DNA of 64,000 nucleotides from Candidatus Peribacteraceae bacterium (GTDB lineage: Bacteria > Patescibacteriota > Gracilibacteria > Peribacterales > Peribacteraceae), in contig DASZVA010000010.1 of NCBI GenBank assembly GCA_035547395.1, positions 8,178 to 72,177 of the forward strand, given 5' to 3'. A model generated the notes under the pieces. The model was not told where the DNA came from. It did no database searches and worked only from the letters and a program-made list of their open reading frames with translations. The translations under genes and the position numbers were made by a program. This document shows, piece by piece, positions 46,447 to 59,161 of this stretch (its first letter is position 1; every line of letters starts with the position of its first letter).

Positions 46447-47346
46447 CTAATATTGCATTAACCAAATGCCAGAGAACACAATAGTTGCAAATCCGAGCTT
46501 TTTAAATAATCCGCCCAACGATAGGTCTTCCCCGAAAATTTTATGTGTAAATACGTTAAGCAGCAATCCGTAAATAATACCGAAAAATATTTGTGTACTG
46601 CCAATAACACCAACTAACGCAACGGGGCCCAATGAAATTGCATAAAAGCTAAGGAGTTTTGCTGAAATAAATATAATTTCATTAATGAAAATGAATAAGA
46701 GGGCAAATTTTGAAGATCCATGTCTTGTAATCAAAAAAGCCTTTCTTATTGTTGGTGATAGAATAAAGAGAAGCAAGCCACCGACGAATATGCCAGTGCT
46801 TTCATATGGAATGATCTGTTGGAATGAAACATTTAATACAATGAATTTGAATAGTACATTTGCGCATGACCATAAGAAATCAGCAAAAAGTATGAATAGT
46901 AGTGCGACTGACAAATACCTCCTAAAATTATTTTTTCTTATAGAGATGCCAATTATTGAAAATAATATAAGAATGAATCCAAAAATTTGATAGATGGTAA
47001 TTGCCTCATGCAAAAACGAAGTTGATAGGAAAAGCGTTATTACCGGAGTAAATTGCATCAAAATAATGACGGTACTAGTATTCTCAATAGAGAGCGCCCG
47101 AAAGTAAAAAAAGAGACCAAATACTGTTAATACGCCGCTTATTATTAATAAGAGTGCGTCTTGAGGTGGAAGCAGTGGGCAACCAGCAAATATCCAGTAG
47201 GAAATGCCGAATATGAGGCTGATTATTGCACTATAAATTATCAAGCCCCGGTAATCCTTAACCTTGCGAATGAGAATGTATTTATCAATAAAGTTGGTAA
47301 TTGCATATACCGCTGCTGCCAACACTGCATAAAAAATCCATGACAT
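46447..47346 (-). CDS. EamA/DMT family transporter
   Basis: About 10 TMs in two repeats; FYFRAL....S.V......P.....L...FL.E. Confidence 0.88.
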   Translation of the reverse strand: MSWIFYAVLAAAVYAITNFIDKYILIRKVKDYRGLIIYSAIISLIFGISYWIFAGCPLLPPQDALLLIISGVLTVFGLFFYFRALSIENTSTVIILMQFTPVITLFLSTSFLHEAITIYQIFGFILILFSIIGISIRKNNFRRYLSVALLFILFADFLWSCANVLFKFIVLNVSFQQIIPYESTGIFVGGLLLFILSPTIRKAFLITRHGSSKFALLFIFINEIIFISAKLLSFYAISLGPVALVGVIGSTQIFFGIIYGLLLNVFTHKIFGEDLSLGGLFKKLGFATIVFSGIWLMQY

Positions 47347-55793: not shown

Positions 55794-57545
55794 ATGACCA
55801 ACGCAGAAATCGCCGACGTCTTTGAGCAAATTGCAAAGGTGCTCGATCTGCAGGGTGAGAATCCGTTCCGCATCCGCGCGTACGATCGTGCCGCGCAGAC
55901 GATCACGGCACTCAGTGAAGAACTCAAAAATATCTACGCACGCGGCGGACACGATGCGCTGCTGGAGATCCCCGGGATCGGTCAGGATCTCTCGGACAAG
56001 ATTGTCGAACTCCTGAAGACGGGGAAATTGAAATACCTCGCGGAGGTGCAGAAGAAACTCCCCAAAGGACTCTTCGACATCATGGAAGTGCCGGGCATGG
56101 GTCCCAAGAAGACGAAGTTTCTGTGGGAGACGTTCAAGGTGAAGGATTTGAAGGACCTGGAAGCACTCGCAAAATCAGACAAACTCATCGGCCGCAAGGG
56201 CTGGGGGCCGAAATCGATCGAAAATATTCTGACCGGCATCGAGGCGAAGAAAACCCACGGCTCGCGCGTGGCTCTCCCGATCGCGTTTGTCATCGCGGAA
56301 CAGATTGCAAACGAACTGCGCGCGACGAAGCTCTGCACCAAAGTGGAAGTCGCCGGCAGCGTGCGGCGCAGAAAGGAAACCATCGGCGACATCGACATCC
56401 TCGTTGCGAGCAAAAAACCGACGCAGGTGATGGACGTGTTCTGCAATTACGACGACGTGGAAGCGGTGGTCGCGAAGGGGCCGACCAAATCGAGCGTGCG
56501 GCTCAAGAGCGGACTCAATGCCGATCTGCGCGTGGTGGATGAGAACGTGTTCGGCGCGGCATGGCATTACTTCACCGGCAGTAAGGATCACAATGTGCAC
56601 GTGCGCAGGATCGGCTTGGAAAAGGGATTCACGATTTCGGAATATGGCGTCTACAAAGGAACGGCCAAGGAGAAAGGAAAATTGCTCGCGTCGAAAACGG
56701 AGGAGGACGTCTACAAGGCGGTGGGACTTCCTTATATAGAGCCGGAGCTTCGGGAGGATCGCGGCGAGATCGAGGCTGCGTACAAGGGAAAACTTCCGCA
56801 TCTCATCGAACTCACGGACATCAAAGGCGATCTGCATCTGCACAGCAATTTCAGTGATGGATCCGCGACGATGATCGACATGGCCCGGGCCGCCAAGGAA
56901 CTGGGGCATCAGTACATCGCGATCACCGATCACGGATCGCCGATGGGCATGGTGTATGGCATCAAGGAAAAAAATATTAAAGAGTATCTGAAAAAAATTA
57001 ATGAAGCGCGCAAGGCTGTCTCCGGCATTCATATTCTCGCCGGCACGGAAGTCGACATTCTGGAAGACGGCAGTTTGTATCTGCCGGACAAGATCCTCAA
57101 GCAGCTCGACTGGGTGGTGGCGTCGGTCCATGGAAATTTCAAGATGCCGCCTGCCGCGATGACCAAAAGAATTCTGAAGGCGATCGAGAATCCCTACGTC
57201 GACATCATCGCACACCCGACGTCGCGATTACTCCTCAAACGCGAGCCGATCGAATACGACATGGACGCGGTGATGAAAGCGGCAGCGAAGAGGGGAGTCT
57301 TGATGGAGCTCAATGCATCGATCTATCGATTGGATCTCAACGACATTCACTGCAAACGTGCGAAGGAACTCGGCGTGATGCTGAGTATCGATTCCGACGC
57401 GCATCACTTCCGCGAGTACGACTACCGCTTCGGCATCACGCAGGCGCGAAGAGGCTGGATCGAGAAAAAAGACGTCCTCAACACGAAAACGTGGAAGGAA
57501 CTCGAAGTGTTTTTGAAGAAGAGGAAGAAGGGATTCAACGGGTGA
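55794..57545 (+). CDS. polX: DNA polymerase X with PHP 3'-5' exonuclease
   Basis: NPFR.RAY, AGS.RR..ETIGDIDIL, FTGSK.HN, PHP motifs DLH.HS, TDH, AHP, DSDAH. Confidence 0.96.
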   Translation: MTNAEIADVFEQIAKVLDLQGENPFRIRAYDRAAQTITALSEELKNIYARGGHDALLEIPGIGQDLSDKIVELLKTGKLKYLAEVQKKLPKGLFDIMEVPGMGPKKTKFLWETFKVKDLKDLEALAKSDKLIGRKGWGPKSIENILTGIEAKKTHGSRVALPIAFVIAEQIANELRATKLCTKVEVAGSVRRRKETIGDIDILVASKKPTQVMDVFCNYDDVEAVVAKGPTKSSVRLKSGLNADLRVVDENVFGAAWHYFTGSKDHNVHVRRIGLEKGFTISEYGVYKGTAKEKGKLLASKTEEDVYKAVGLPYIEPELREDRGEIEAAYKGKLPHLIELTDIKGDLHLHSNFSDGSATMIDMARAAKELGHQYIAITDHGSPMGMVYGIKEKNIKEYLKKINEARKAVSGIHILAGTEVDILEDGSLYLPDKILKQLDWVVASVHGNFKMPPAAMTKRILKAIENPYVDIIAHPTSRLLLKREPIEYDMDAVMKAAAKRGVLMELNASIYRLDLNDIHCKRAKELGVMLSIDSDAHHFREYDYRFGITQARRGWIEKKDVLNTKTWKELEVFLKKRKKGFNG

Positions 57546-57585: not shown

Positions 57586-58395
57586 TTAAATCCGCCCCTT
57601 TCTTTTGCCCGACCCGCCGAAGTGGATACCTTGCGACACGATATTTTGAAGCAGCGGGCGGATTTGTTCATGAATGTTCACGATACTGCTGTCTTCCCAC
57701 ACGTCCTCTTCAAGCGCGTTGTAGAGAGGGGCGGAATTGATGACGTTTTCATATGCGTGATCGCTGCCATAAGCAAATGCACGCGAGAAGGTACGAATGA
57801 GTAGTTGATCGACTTCAGCTTCATAACCTTCCCGTACGCCTGAGAGAAACTCGTCCTGCTCTTTCGTGCGGGTCGCTTCGAAGACGCCGATCAATTCCCG
57901 GCCGCGCGCCTGGTGTAGTTCATCGAGACCATGGCGGAACTGGCTGCCTTCTTCATCCGCAAGACGAATCTTTGCGAGAAAGAATTGGAGTGGAGCATCT
58001 CTTTTCTTTCTCTTTGCGATGTGAAACAAATATTTGGAATGCTCCAACTGTCCTGTCCATTCTTTGGGCTTTGCATCCGGATCCGTGACTCCATGGGTCT
58101 CTTTGGTTCCCGCAGCAATGGCAAGACGGTCTGACAGATCGCGGGTGATTTTCACAATCTCCGATCTGCGTTCCTTCGTCGCCTCATTAATGTGATAATC
58201 AATCCAGGATAATTTGGAGAGTTTCTGCTCCAGGAGGAAATCGAATGTATCCAGATACTCGATCAGCTGCGTGCGTGTTTTTTGCTGGATGGCCTCGAGG
58301 ACGGTTGCGTGAAGAAAGGCTATGGTTTCGCACTCCAGAGTATCGAACTGATCGAGGGGAATCGACGAGCCGTAGATGGTGCTGTATGCGTTCAT
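57586..58395 (-). CDS. Hypothetical soluble protein downstream of tandem SAM-I riboswitches
   Basis: 269-aa ORF with no recognisable family, no internal Met and one Cys. Confidence 0.75.
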   Translation of the reverse strand: MNAYSTIYGSSIPLDQFDTLECETIAFLHATVLEAIQQKTRTQLIEYLDTFDFLLEQKLSKLSWIDYHINEATKERRSEIVKITRDLSDRLAIAAGTKETHGVTDPDAKPKEWTGQLEHSKYLFHIAKRKKRDAPLQFFLAKIRLADEEGSQFRHGLDELHQARGRELIGVFEATRTKEQDEFLSGVREGYEAEVDQLLIRTFSRAFAYGSDHAYENVINSAPLYNALEEDVWEDSSIVNIHEQIRPLLQNIVSQGIHFGGSGKRKGRI

Positions 58396-58447
58396 GGGAT
58401 AGGGGGAATGAAAATAAATTCCTCCTATCGGGCGAACATCATGTGAT

Positions 58448-58556
58448 GTATCTGTCCCGATGAGGGCATGGAAGGGGCACTGATCGCCGCGTTGATGGTC
58501 GCGGGAAGTTGCCGGATGAGTCGTCGAGCCATGTCTCTCGTCATCACTCTTGATAC
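58448..58556 (-). ncRNA. SAM-I riboswitch aptamer 2 (gene-proximal, probably translational)
   Basis: Minus strand: GTATC-AAGAG, GATGA-CGAGAGACATGGCTCGACGAC-TCATC, CGGCAAC...AGTGCC, CCTTCC, P4 CCC-TCATC-GGG, AGATAC. Matches the SAM-I consensus. Confidence 0.85.
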
Positions 58557-58586
58557 GATGCTTGAAAGAACGAAGGAGCCGGCGGT

Positions 58587-58607
58587 TTACATGGCGGTCA
58601 TGAGCAT
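58587..58607 (-). CDS. Met-rich leader peptide MLMTAM (uORF)
   Basis: ATG CTC ATG ACC GCC ATG TAA, preceded by the genome's typical pyrimidine-rich initiation region. Confidence 0.65.
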   Translation of the reverse strand: MLMTAM

Positions 58608-58638
58608 GGCGGTGTGGGGAAGGAAATGAAGCGGAATC

Positions 58639-58663
58639 AAAAACGCTCTCCCGGGGAAGAGCG
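58639..58663 (-). terminator. Riboswitch-controlled intrinsic terminator
   Basis: CGCTCTTCCCCGGGAGAGCG-TTTTT; the 5' arm TCTTCCCC is complementary to GGGGAAGA at the aptamer 3' end (antiterminator). Confidence 0.85.
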
Positions 58664-58674
58664 ACTGGTTGCTT

Positions 58675-58775
58675 CTATCTTCCCCCTTTCGGGGCTGGAG
58701 TTCCCACCGTTTCCCTCTCGGGATGGTTGGGGGACGTCTGTAGCGGGCCAGTTCCCTCGACGTCTCTCGTGATAG
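58675..58775 (-). ncRNA. SAM-I riboswitch aptamer 1 (transcriptional)
   Basis: Minus strand: CTATC-ACGAG, GACGTC-GAGGGAACTGGCCC-GACGTC, CCCAACC...GGTGGG, AACTCC, CCCC-GAAA-GGGG, AAGATAG. Confidence 0.92.
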
Positions 58776-58829
58776 CGATGATGTGACATCATGAAAGCAT
58801 GATTTTTCGCATAAATCAAGCAAAATCGT

Positions 58830-58976
58830 TCATTCCTTGCCTCCATCGCAGCACGTCTCGCACAGAACTCCGCATTGCGAACAATGCTTCTTGAGCCTGC
58901 GTTCGATGAGCGCTGCGCCGCAGACCGGACATCGGTCATCGCAAGCATTTTCTTTTATGGTCGCAGGTTCCACCAT
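58830..58976 (-). CDS. Small Cys-rich zinc-finger microprotein (48 aa)
   Basis: MVEPATIKENACDDRCPVCGAALIERRLKKHCSQCGVLCETCCDGGKE; CPxCG and CxxCG knuckles. Confidence 0.65.
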   Translation of the reverse strand: MVEPATIKENACDDRCPVCGAALIERRLKKHCSQCGVLCETCCDGGKE

Positions 58977-59161
58977 GTGCCGATGAGCGAAAGTCCCATC
59001 ACGATGAAGAAGATCGCGACGAGGTAGGCGAGCAGATCCGGCGCGATCAGGATCGCGATGCCGAAGGCGAGGGCGAGAATGCCGCCTGACAAAAACGACG
59101 TGCCGATGATGCGCGAGCCGGTGGTGGACAGTCCCTGGGGTCTGCGGAAGAAGAAGAACAT
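58955..59161 (-). CDS. Small 2-TM membrane protein
   Basis: GI.ILI.P.LLAY.VA..F pattern; TATACT 6 nt before the ATG. Confidence 0.7.
   Translation of the reverse strand: MFFFFRRPQGLSTTGSRIIGTSFLSGGILALAFGIAILIAPDLLAYLVAIFFIVMGLSLIGTWWNLRP

What the first reader, a model, noticed from the sequence alone, without database searches (positions are those of the whole stretch)
58396..58775. Three-tier SAM/methionine leader: SAM-I riboswitch, Met-rich uORF, second SAM-I riboswitch
Seen, minus strand 5'->3': (1) SAM-I aptamer 58775-58675, whose 3' GGGGAAGA can pair with TCTTCCCC in terminator 58663-58639, the classic SAM-OFF terminator/antiterminator layout. (2) uORF 58607-58587, ATG CTC ATG ACC GCC ATG TAA (3 of 6 codons are Met), stopping about 30 nt before the next aptamer. 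(3) A second, divergent SAM-I aptamer 58556-58448. (4) Hairpin GATAGGAGGAAT/ATTCCCCCTATC, which buries the initiation region just upstream of ATG 58395. Its 5' side (CCCGATAGG) can instead pair with aptamer-2 P4 (CCTCATCGGG), a translational switch. Established: SAM-I consensus (RF00162) and amino-acid-rich leader-peptide attenuation are each known separately. Inference: one mRNA reads SAM twice and Met-tRNA charging once. I do not know this combination as a described architecture, and it is unexpected in a reduced CPR genome.
Basis: partly seen in the sequence, partly recalled or inferred. Interest (0 to 1): 0.92.

Follow-up and report, generated by a model that had tools for sequence, protein, structure and literature searches.

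The report
Tandem SAM-I riboswitches before orphan gene
Two S-adenosylmethionine-sensing RNA switches sit one after the other in front of a gene of unknown function in a tiny Peribacteria genome, the first likely stopping transcription and the second likely blocking translation; this double-switch layout is a known kind, and the proposed methionine-sensing mini-gene between them is not supported.

Summary
The sequence features are real. On the minus strand, two full-length RF00162 (SAM-I) matches lie in tandem (58778..58672, 42.9 bits; 58559..58445, 35.3 bits). Both are below Rfam's gathering score of 44.4. Both fit a lineage alignment whose 28-pair model, pseudoknot included, is 95% paired. 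Aptamer 1 is followed by an intrinsic terminator. Aptamer 2 is followed by a hairpin that buries the CU-rich initiation region and start codon of a 269-aa orphan gene.

The whole leader recurs before the orthologous gene in two other Peribacteria contigs. The best reading is a "bi-mechanism" homo-tandem SAM OFF switch: transcription first, then translation.

Tandem SAM-I is not new. Sherlock et al. 2022 list 164 doubles, and SAM-I is common in this family.

The Met-rich uORF idea fails. The orthologous uORFs read MLMTAM, MFP and MILTHH. Only the CU-tract and ATG are conserved, and these resemble the metK start region that follows this riboswitch type in relatives.

One point of interest beyond the finding: the genus lacks metK, so the genome's only SAM-controlled gene is a fast-evolving orphan.

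The parts
58791..58819 (-). Promoter-like boxes: TTGATT (58819..58814), a 17-nt spacer ending in TGC, then TTTCAT (58796..58791). The predicted transcript start lies a few nt before P1 of aptamer 1.
   Evidence: Read. The TTGnnn-17-TGC-TTTxAT layout is kept in all three leaders. The consensus scan did not report it. This part is inferred.
58672..58778 (-). SAM-I aptamer 1, of the lineage's 'metK-type'.
   Evidence: RF00162, 42.9 bits (GA 44.4), E 2.5e-8. It forms 28/28 model pairs including the CUGG/CCAG pseudoknot. It is 81% identical to G028's metK riboswitch, and 79-85% identical to the top 20 matches.
58639..58663 (-). Intrinsic terminator: an 8-bp stem CGCUCUUC/GGAGAGCG, loop CCCG, then U5. 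Its 5' arm and loop (UCUUCCCC) can pair instead with GGGGAAGA of P4-3'/J4-1 to form an antiterminator.
   Evidence: The stem shows two compensatory pair changes between G000 and L061.
58608..58632 (-). Conserved CU-rich tract (GCTTCATTTCCTTCCCCACACCGCC). It resembles the tract in front of metK in relatives and in front of genes in this genome.
   Evidence: Together with the ATG, 22 of 34 ungapped columns are invariant, against 7 of 27 for the rest of the linker. Its start-context score is at the 99.1st percentile of internal ATGs. Relatives' metK leaders are shown.
58587..58607 (-). Mini-uORF ATG CTC ATG ACC GCC ATG TAA (MLMTAM*).
   Evidence: The ATG falls in the same alignment column in 3 of 3 leaders, but the peptides are MLMTAM, MFP and MILTHH. 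A complete uORF arises in 17-31% of shuffled linkers.
58445..58559 (-). SAM-I aptamer 2, related to the genus's 'metA-type'.
   Evidence: RF00162, 35.3 bits, E 4.1e-6. It forms 25/28 model pairs and has a compensated AUGG/CCAU pseudoknot. It is the most conserved leader segment, with 85 of 106 columns invariant. It folds alone into the four-way junction in all three orthologs.
58456..58465 (-). P4-region strand CCUCAUCGGG. It forms the anti-sequestor (ON state) with 58432..58421.
   Evidence: Constrained RNAfold. Equivalent pairings appear in G001 and L061.
58398..58432 (-). Sequestor hairpin. The purine-rich 5' arm GAUAGGAGGAAU (58429..58418) pairs with the CU-rich 3' arm AUUCCCCCUAUC (58409..58398). 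CCC at 58432..58430 belongs to the anti-sequestor partner.
   Evidence: -13.3 kcal/mol, z = -4.39. Orthologs give z = -3.12 and -3.76. Both arms are invariant in 3 of 3 leaders.
58386..58442 (-). Extended OFF-state helix. An outer stem 58442..58433 / 58394..58386 pairs the U and G of the start codon (58394, 58393).
   Evidence: MFE folds. I did not check whether this outer stem is conserved in the orthologs.
57586..58395 (-). Controlled gene: a 269-aa lineage-restricted orphan (P0001). It is monocistronic and converges on polX (55794..57545, +).
   Evidence: No Pfam, NCBIfam, PHROG, PADLOC or PDB match. The only relatives are G001's P0004 (25% identity, E 2e-12; profile search) and the cut L061 copy (47% over 51 aa).

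Best explanation
This is a 'bi-mechanism' homo-tandem SAM-I riboswitch. Two complete SAM-sensing OFF switches lie in one 5' leader, each with its own expression platform, and control a single orphan gene.

Switch 1 (metK-type aptamer). When SAM is bound, P1 and P4 hold the GGGGAAGA segment. The downstream terminator then forms and transcription stops at about 58639. Without SAM, that segment pairs with the terminator's 5' arm and the polymerase reads on.

Switch 2 (metA-type aptamer) acts on transcripts that escape switch 1. With SAM bound, the strand CCCGAUAGGAGG is free to pair with the CU-rich tract next to the AUG. The initiation region and start codon are then buried. Without SAM, that strand pairs back into the P4 region (CCUCAUCGGG) and the start site is open.

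This genome shows no Shine-Dalgarno signal. The CU-rich arm is therefore the ribosome landing site, and the 'AGGAGG' arm is the occluding strand, not an SD.

The two switches are not a recent duplication. They belong to two sub-lineages of SAM-I that in relatives sit before metK and before metA.

The linker's CU-tract and ATG look like a retained metK-type initiation region in a genus that has lost metK. Its mini-ORF may be translated, but it does not read methionine supply.

Shown here: the elements, their conservation and their covariation. Inferred: SAM binding, the direction of switching, and the origin of the linker.
For: Aptamers:
- Two full-length RF00162 matches.
- The lineage alignment of 24 aptamers gives 95.3% paired cells, against 78.2% in shuffles (0 of 500 shuffles reach it) and 36-49% with slid partners. 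22 of 28 pairs show changes on both sides, and the pseudoknot is 99% paired with 4 of 4 pairs covarying.
- Aptamer 1 forms 28/28 pairs and aptamer 2 forms 25/28.

Platforms:
- Terminator, with two compensatory pairs in L061.
- The sequestor hairpin is significant in 3 of 3 leaders.
- The anti-sequestor is found in G000 and G001 and in L061, with exact pairs listed.
- No T-run follows the sequestor.

Conservation:
- The same leader lies before the orthologous gene in G001 (78% column identity) and in L061 (two RF00162 hits of 45.6 and 41.4 bits).
- Meanwhile the protein has diverged to 25% identity, and the neighbouring polX is 73% identical.

Non-SD initiation:
- GGAG occurs in 6 of 220 upstream windows, against 15 of 220 coding controls. 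TTCC occurs in 51 against 24, and CTCC in 34 against 10.
- The 16S tail reads ...ATCTCCTTA.
- The main ATG's context is at the 94.5th percentile of real starts.

Two subtypes.

Precedent: terminator-then-RBS tandems and 164 double SAM-I riboswitches (passages of PMC9481103).
Against: - Neither window aptamer reaches Rfam's gathering score.
- cmscan did not report aptamer 2 in G001 at E up to 10. It is seen there only by alignment and folding.
- Aptamer 2 has a short P4 (3 bp) and 3 unpaired cells.
- The sequestor arms are invariant, so they give conservation but no covariation.
- G001's terminator has a poor U-tract (GGUUCUGUGA). The terminator z-scores are modest (-2.39, -1.37, -1.84).
- The OFF fold is only 6.6 kcal/mol better than the ON fold.
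- There are no ligand-binding, transcript or expression data, and no RNA run holds the stretch.
- Only three leaders exist, and they are related by descent.
Confidence: 0.8

Rival explanations
1. The Met-rich uORF is a leader peptide whose translation speed reports Met-tRNA charging, adding a third input to two SAM readings.
For: 3 of the uORF's 6 codons are ATG. Its ATG has a start-like context, at the 99.1st percentile of internal ATGs. The CU-tract and ATG are conserved in 3 of 3 leaders.
Against: - The orthologous uORFs are MFP and MILTHH, and their only Met is the start.
- The uORF lies downstream of terminator 1. Its stop is 30 nt (G000, L061) or 21 nt (G001) before P1 of aptamer 2, so a ribosome on it overlaps none of the alternative helices found.
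- A complete uORF arises in 17-31% of shuffled linkers.
Confidence: 0.04
2. The mini-ORF is translated and has a role that does not depend on its codons. Examples are loading ribosomes on the long leader to prevent Rho-type termination or decay, or timing the folding of aptamer 2. In this reading it is not a silent relic of the metK start.
For: The CU-tract and ATG are conserved as strongly as the aptamers (22/34 invariant columns, against 7/27 for the rest of the linker). This holds although the three genomes are diverged (orphan protein 25% identical). All three uORFs end in TAA, and two have identical length and identical spacing to aptamer 2. The context is start-like.
Against: There is no direct evidence of translation. 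The peptide, its length (3 or 6 codons) and the spacing in G001 all differ. Three related sequences cannot separate selection from shared descent. The same conservation could reflect an RNA-level role of the CU-tract.
Confidence: 0.3
3. Aptamer 2 is a decayed relic, or has changed ligand as the spermidine-sensing SAM-I variants did. In that case only aptamer 1 senses SAM.
For: It has the lowest score (35.3 bits) and is not reported by cmscan in G001. Its P4 is short. SAM-I variants with a changed ligand exist (abstract and passages of PMC10853860).
Against: - It is the best-conserved leader segment (85/106 invariant columns).
- The pseudoknot is compensated (AUGG/CCAU against CUGG/CCAG).
- The distal P3 differs in sequence but pairs in all three orthologs.
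- The cmscan alignment keeps the consensus letters in J1/2 (AGAG) and the P3 internal loop (GCAAC...GUGC). Those are the regions said to be altered in the spermidine variants (figure legend).
- Which nucleotides contact SAM is recalled from the literature and was not taken from a call.
Confidence: 0.07
4. Both switches act on transcription ('pseudo-cooperative' tandem). The second hairpin would work as a terminator or through Rho, not by blocking initiation.
For: Most tandem SAM-I pairs are assumed to be pseudo-cooperative. Terminators in this lineage often have poor U-tracts, so the lack of a clean U-run is weak evidence.
Against: The 3' arm of the hairpin is the CU-rich tract directly before the AUG, and the outer helix pairs the start codon itself. 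The sequence after the hairpin is CCCAUGAACGC, with no U-run. The same holds in G001 and L061.
Confidence: 0.08

Closest known systems
Tandem (double) SAM-I riboswitches, Sherlock et al. 2022, RNA Biol 19:1059 (PMC9481103; passages read, supplements not available)
   Same: Two complete SAM-I riboswitches lie in one 5' leader, each with its own expression platform, and both are OFF switches for the same ligand.
   Different: The paper treats the 164 doubles as 'likely pseudo-cooperative' and did not sort them by mechanism. Here the platforms differ (terminator, then start-site occlusion). The two aptamers come from two sub-lineages and are 54.7% identical to each other. The host is a Peribacteria (CPR) genome, and the target is an orphan gene, not a Met/Cys/SAM gene.
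Bi-mechanism SAM-II/SAM-V tandem of 'Candidatus Pelagibacter ubique' (Poiata et al. 2009, as cited in PMC9481103 and the abstract of PMC11508383) and SAM-II/SAM-II doublets
   Same: The first riboswitch ends in an intrinsic terminator and the second controls access to the initiation region. The same ligand is read at two levels, in a small streamlined genome.
   Different: The aptamer classes differ (H-type pseudoknot SAM-II/V against four-way-junction SAM-I). Here the occluded site is a CU-rich, non-SD tract, and the occluding strand looks like an SD.
Classical S-box (SAM-I) leader of Bacillota and the single metK riboswitch of this family
   Same: Aptamer 1, its antiterminator and its terminator follow this design. 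They are 79-85% identical to the best-matching riboswitches of family members (top 20 rows), 16 of which precede a metK-like ORF.
   Different: In this genus metK is gone (0 of 6 genomes). Only a mini-ORF stands where metK's start would be, followed by a second riboswitch.
Amino-acid leader-peptide attenuation (trp, his, leu operons; recalled textbook knowledge)
   Same: A short ORF lies in a leader, and in this one genome it is rich in one codon.
   Different: The codon enrichment is not conserved. The uORF does not overlap alternative terminator/antiterminator helices. The controlled gene is not a methionine biosynthesis gene.

Membership tests
SAM-I riboswitch aptamer (Rfam RF00162) | Score at or above Rfam's gathering threshold (44.4 bits) | tested here: not met
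   Window: 42.9 and 35.3 bits. Ortholog L061: 45.6 bits (met) and 41.4 bits. G001: 41.1 bits for aptamer 1, and aptamer 2 not reported. The scores are sub-threshold, but the E-values are 2.5e-8 and 4.1e-6 for the local search.
SAM-I riboswitch aptamer (Rfam RF00162) | Four-way junction P1-P4, supported by covariation | tested here: met
   The 24 helix pairs are part of a 28-pair model that is 95.3% paired over 24 lineage aptamers, and 22 of the 28 pairs show changes on both sides. Aptamer 1 forms 28/28 and aptamer 2 forms 25/28. The MFE of each isolated aptamer-2 ortholog gives the junction.
SAM-I riboswitch aptamer (Rfam RF00162) | Pseudoknot between the P2 loop and J3/4 | tested here: met
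   Columns 31-34 pair with columns 113-116. This helix is 99% paired, and all 4 pairs show changes on both sides. Aptamer 1 has CUGG/CCAG, aptamer 2 has AUGG/CCAU, and L061 aptamer 1 has CCGA/UCGG.
SAM-I riboswitch aptamer (Rfam RF00162) | Conserved core letters in J1/2, the P3 internal loop and the P1 3' strand | tested here: met
   The cmscan alignments match the upper-case consensus: UAUC, GAG, CAAC, GGUG/GUGCC and AGAUA in both aptamers. There is one A-to-C change in J1/2 of aptamer 1. Which of these letters contact SAM is recalled, not tested.
SAM-I riboswitch aptamer (Rfam RF00162) | Kink-turn in P2 | not tested
   I did not examine it separately. The P2 internal-loop region aligns to the model with lowered posterior probability in aptamer 1.
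SAM-I riboswitch aptamer (Rfam RF00162) | Selective binding of SAM | not testable with these tools
   This needs in-line probing, ITC or equilibrium dialysis.
Bi-mechanism tandem riboswitch (as defined in PMC9481103) | Two complete riboswitches for the same ligand, each with its own expression platform | tested here: met
   That both bind the same ligand is inferred from class membership.
Bi-mechanism tandem riboswitch (as defined in PMC9481103) | The first platform is an intrinsic terminator; the second controls ribosome access | tested here: met
   The terminator with U5 is at 58663..58639. The second hairpin has no U-run and pairs the tract before the AUG and the start codon itself. This is computational only.
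Leader-peptide (ribosome-mediated) attenuation | uORF enriched in codons of the sensed amino acid, conserved among orthologs | tested here: not met
   Met codons: 3 of 6 in G000, 1 of 3 in G001 and 1 of 6 in L061. In the last two the only Met is the start.
Leader-peptide (ribosome-mediated) attenuation | uORF overlaps or abuts the alternative terminator/antiterminator helices | tested here: not met
   The uORF starts 31 nt after the terminator's U-run and ends 30 nt before P1 of aptamer 2. No conserved helix involving it was found.

The most novel reading that the evidence does not exclude
This Peribacteria genus appears to be a SAM auxotroph. I found no MetK of either type, no SAH hydrolase, no Pfs and no radical-SAM enzymes, yet TrmD is present. 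The genus has kept SAM-I riboswitches as sensors of imported SAM. In this genome, the only SAM-controlled gene is a fast-evolving orphan that is switched on, under double lock, only when SAM runs out. That would make the orphan a candidate factor for acquiring SAM or methionine from a host, or for surviving SAM starvation. The conserved, start-like mini-ORF between the two switches would be a translated third element of the leader.
Probability: 0.2. Interest if true: 0.7.

Novelty: new member of a known kind. Interest (0 to 1): 0.4.

Why it matters
As an architecture this is ordinary. Tandem SAM-I riboswitches and terminator-then-translation tandems are both in print.

Three things give it some value:
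- It documents working-looking riboswitches, including a tandem, in Peribacteria/CPR. My three literature searches found nothing on this: 'riboswitch' + 'Peribacteria' gave 0 papers, 'candidate phyla radiation' + 'SAM riboswitch' gave 0, and 'Patescibacteria' + 'riboswitch' gave 8. Of those 8 I read passages of only one, which discusses only synthetic riboswitches.
- It shows start-site occlusion in a lineage without Shine-Dalgarno signals. There, the purine-rich 'SD-like' strand is the repressor arm.
- A riboswitch gives a functional handle on an orphan. A protein under two SAM locks in a metK-less genome is a concrete candidate for SAM-related symbiont biology.

Tried and rejected
- Standard Rfam scan at gathering thresholds: no SAM hit in the window. 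This is why the E-value mode and orthologs were needed.
- Function of the 269-aa protein. Pfam, NCBIfam, PHROGs and PADLOC gave no hits. The PDB profile search gave 0 hits at E up to 1.
- The word-indexed 5.8-billion-cluster search found only the protein itself. With a 3-row profile it found only itself and G001's copy. The search for longer proteins found none (weak evidence by the tool's own note).
- The AlphaFold2 model has mean pLDDT 48.8, so I ran no fold search. The ESM Atlas gave no reliable family; the best feature hits scored 0.92-0.93 with few shared features.
- Synteny test for in-situ replacement of metK. No shared neighbours were found with three metK-bearing relatives (G028, G189, G029) or with G004 and G005 at the riboswitch loci. 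In G002-G005 the polX neighbourhood has no leader or orphan gene. The origin of the fusion therefore stays inferred.
- The idea that the orphans behind the metA-type riboswitch in G004 and G002 belong to the same family as P0001 is rejected (E 4.9 and 0.051).
- Expression: no RNA holder was listed for the stretch, and read laying was not used. This says nothing about expression.
I could not check whether CPR examples or SAM-I/SAM-I bi-mechanism cases are already listed.
Full report
**What is there.**
I read the minus strand of 59000..58200. A scan of the whole window at Rfam gathering thresholds reports only a tRNA. In E-value mode on 801 nt, two full-length RF00162 (SAM-I) matches appear. They lie at 58778..58672 (42.9 bits, E 2.5e-8) and 58559..58445 (35.3 bits, E 4.1e-6), and the gathering score is 44.4. 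These are the only two RF00162-like sites in the 1.29-Mb genome, which has 17 contigs and is 92% complete. The terminator scan finds CGCUCUUC-CCCG-GGAGAGCG followed by UUUUU at 58663..58639.

**The controlled gene.**
ATG 58395 opens a 269-aa ORF (57586..58395, P0001). It converges on polX (55794..57545, +; NF006375, 506 bits), so the unit is monocistronic. P0001 has no Pfam, NCBIfam, PHROG, PADLOC or PDB match. Searches of 5.8 billion clusters find only one relative, the G001 protein P0004. P0001 and P0004 align end to end at 25% identity (E 2e-12). The neighbouring polX is 73% identical, and the RNA leaders share 78% column identity. The protein therefore evolves much faster than its own leader. 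The AlphaFold2 model was too poor to use (pLDDT 48.8).

**Are the aptamers real?**
RF00162-like matches occur in 26 of 61 genomes searched, G000 included, and 15 of them are over the cut-off. I aligned 24 aptamers: 20 of the 26 single sites in relatives, plus both aptamers from G000 and from G001. L013, L018, L025, L026 and L027 were left out because of their long P3 inserts or weak scores. L022's aptamer 1 is included as G001_apt1.

RNAalifold recovers P1-P4, and 16 of its 22 pairs show compensatory changes. With the P2-loop/J3-4 pseudoknot added, the 28-pair model is 95.3% paired. Column shuffles give 78.2% (0 of 500 reach the observed value), and slid partners give 36-49%. The pseudoknot is 99% paired, and all four of its pairs change on both sides. 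By row, aptamer 1 forms 28/28 pairs and aptamer 2 forms 25/28. Two of aptamer 2's three misses are a P4 register shift.

The alignment also shows two sub-types. Aptamer 1 belongs with the riboswitches that precede metK, and is 81% identical to G028's. Aptamer 2 is closest, after its ortholog, to the riboswitches that precede metA in the same genus (64.6% to G005's). The two window aptamers are only 54.7% identical to each other. Their pseudoknots differ by a double change, CUGG/CCAG against AUGG/CCAU.

**Conservation of the whole leader.**
A DNA search of 200 genomes of the family matched 110 of them, G000 included. Nearly all of those matches fall within query positions 1-177, that is aptamer 1 and its terminator. 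One match (G175) covers 92 nt of the aptamer-2 region at 72% identity. Only G001 matches the full 395 nt. cmscan at E up to 0.1 finds a single aptamer at each of the 26 sites in relatives. It also misses G001's aptamer 2 at E up to 10, although that aptamer aligns and folds well.

A pattern scan of metagenome contigs gave one further copy, L061. It holds aptamer 1 (45.6 bits, above the cut-off), aptamer 2 (41.4 bits), and an ORF beginning MTFYTTIYGEHIPLDE, which is 47% identical to P0001 over 51 aa. The same pattern in genome contigs found only G001's own contig, whose title names a Candidatus Peribacteria MAG.

In the three-way alignment, the share of invariant ungapped columns is as follows:

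| Segment | Invariant columns |
|---|---|
| Aptamer 1 | 73/106 |
| Aptamer 2 | 85/106 |
| CU-tract + ATG | 22/34 |
| Rest of the linker | 7/27 |

The terminator stem carries two compensatory pairs between G000 and L061.

**Expression platforms.**
Aptamer 1 has the classical S-box logic. GGGGAAGA in P4-3'/J4-1 can pair with UCUUCCCC of the terminator. For aptamer 2, the MFE fold forms hairpin 58429..58398 plus an outer helix that pairs U58394 and G58393 of the start codon. The hairpin is significantly stable in all three leaders (z = -4.39, -3.12, -3.76).

If the 3' arm and the AUG are kept single-stranded, the 5' arm pairs with 58465..58456 in the P4 region, which breaks P4 and P1. The energies are -46.4 against -53.0 kcal/mol in G000. 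Equivalent pairings appear in G001 and L061. No U-run follows the hairpin. I read this as translational OFF control.

**Which arm is the ribosome site?**
The genome's 16S tail reads ...GGAACATCTCCTTA. GGAG occurs in 6 of 220 well-defined upstream windows, against 15 of 220 coding controls. TTCC occurs in 51 against 24, and CTCC in 34 against 10. Many starts abut a TATACT/TACACT box, which suggests leaderless mRNAs. On a 3-mer log-odds score, the context of the main ATG is at the 94.5th percentile of real starts. The gene itself may be among the 220 training starts, which is a small circularity. So the CU-rich 3' arm is the normal initiation region, and the AGGAGG arm is the occluder.

**The uORF.**
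The three leaders hold MLMTAM*, MFP* and MILTHH*. The ATG is in one alignment column after a conserved CU-tract, and all three stops are TAA. Met enrichment is thus private to G000. A complete uORF arises in 26%, 17% and 31% of shuffled linkers. The context of ATG 58607 is start-like, at the 99.1st percentile of internal ATGs and the 74.5th percentile of real starts.

I examined 18 relatives' loci. One lacked the core motif I used as an anchor. The other 17 gave an ORF containing SESV, and in 16 of these it begins MS..FTSESV like the Pfam-confirmed MetK of L004. In those 16, the same riboswitch and hairpin are followed by a CU-rich tract and the metK ATG, 60-216 nt after P1 (median about 85). 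In G000 the uORF's ATG is about 65 nt after P1. I infer that the uORF start is a retained metK-type initiation region. Whether it still works is open.

**Context.**
The genes downstream of the 26 single riboswitches in relatives are:

| Downstream gene | Number of sites |
|---|---|
| metK (2 by Pfam, the rest by 61-83% BLASTP identity to L004) | 17 |
| ahcY | 1 |
| metA/HTS | 2 |
| P0001 ortholog | 1 |
| Unrelated orphan family (G004, G002) | 2 |
| Unknown | 3 |

metK (PF02773) is found in 24 of 36 other family genomes but in 0 of 6 genomes of this genus, which includes a closed single-contig genome. tblastn of a relative's MetK against G000 gives only E 0.65 and 0.91. An archaeal-type synthetase was not found in the 5 genus genomes tested; G002 was not tested. 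G000 also lacks matches to AdoHcyase, HTS, PNP_UDP_1 and Radical_SAM, while TrmD and several EamA transporters are present. At 92% completeness, absence is not proven for G000 alone. Chlamydia is a precedent for metK-less bacteria that import SAM (abstract of PMC3104491).

**Comparison with what is known.**
Passages of Sherlock et al. [quoted passage not shown] They define 'bi-mechanism' tandems (terminator first, then RBS control) for SAM-II/SAM-V (149 examples) and for many of the 44 SAM-II doublets. They also say that not all tandems were sorted by mechanism. PMC12452182 likewise reports tandem SAM riboswitches (passages). The window's element is therefore a further member of a known kind.

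Its distinctive points are these:
- a CPR host;
- two aptamer sub-lineages in one leader;
- occlusion of a non-SD start site;
- an orphan target gene;
- a genus without metK.

**Verdict.**
Interest is 0.4.

Noticed in passing
whole genome G000 and genus (G001-G005): The genus appears to be a SAM auxotroph. Bacterial metK was found in 0 of 6 genomes, against 24 of 36 other family genomes. No archaeal-type synthetase was found in the 5 genomes tested. In G000 I also found no AdoHcyase, Pfs-type nucleosidase or radical-SAM enzyme, yet TrmD and several EamA/DMT transporters are present.
   Followed up: partly
G000 contig C12 (16S 3' end) and genome-wide start regions: The 16S tail reads ...GGAACATCTCCTTA, so the canonical CCUCC is altered. 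No Shine-Dalgarno enrichment is seen before starts. Many ATGs directly abut a TATACT/TACACT -10-like box, which suggests leaderless mRNAs, and others have CU-rich tracts.
   Followed up: partly
window about 58975..58830 (-): A small Cys-rich ORF ends just upstream of the leader's promoter (...CPVCGAALIERRLKKHCSQCGVLCETCCDGGKE*). It looks zinc-ribbon-like. There is no family match for the longer 152-aa reading.
   Followed up: no
L023 (G004) and L014 (G002), downstream of their metA-type SAM-I riboswitch: A second orphan family (274 and 256 aa, 56% identical to each other, no Pfam, PHROG or PADLOC match) sits behind a SAM-I riboswitch in the same genus. It is unrelated to P0001.
   Followed up: partly
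L036 (G189), L050, L045, L046, L042: metK 5' UTRs of relatives: Odd inserts lie between the riboswitch terminator and the metK start. L036 has a (CCCTAA)6 telomere-like hexamer array. L050 has GAATCAT-type repeats. L042, L045 and L046 have long AT-rich palindromic inserts.
   Followed up: no
window 55794..57545 (+) against 57586..58395 (-), and G001 L051: There is extreme rate heterogeneity between adjacent orthologous genes. PolX is 73% identical, while the riboswitch-controlled orphan is 25% identical and its RNA leader shares 78% column identity.
   Followed up: partly
window 46942..47346 (-) (G000:C10:55119-55523): One of the EamA/DMT transporter genes lies in the window, about 11 kb from the riboswitch. 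No link to the leader was seen.
   Followed up: no
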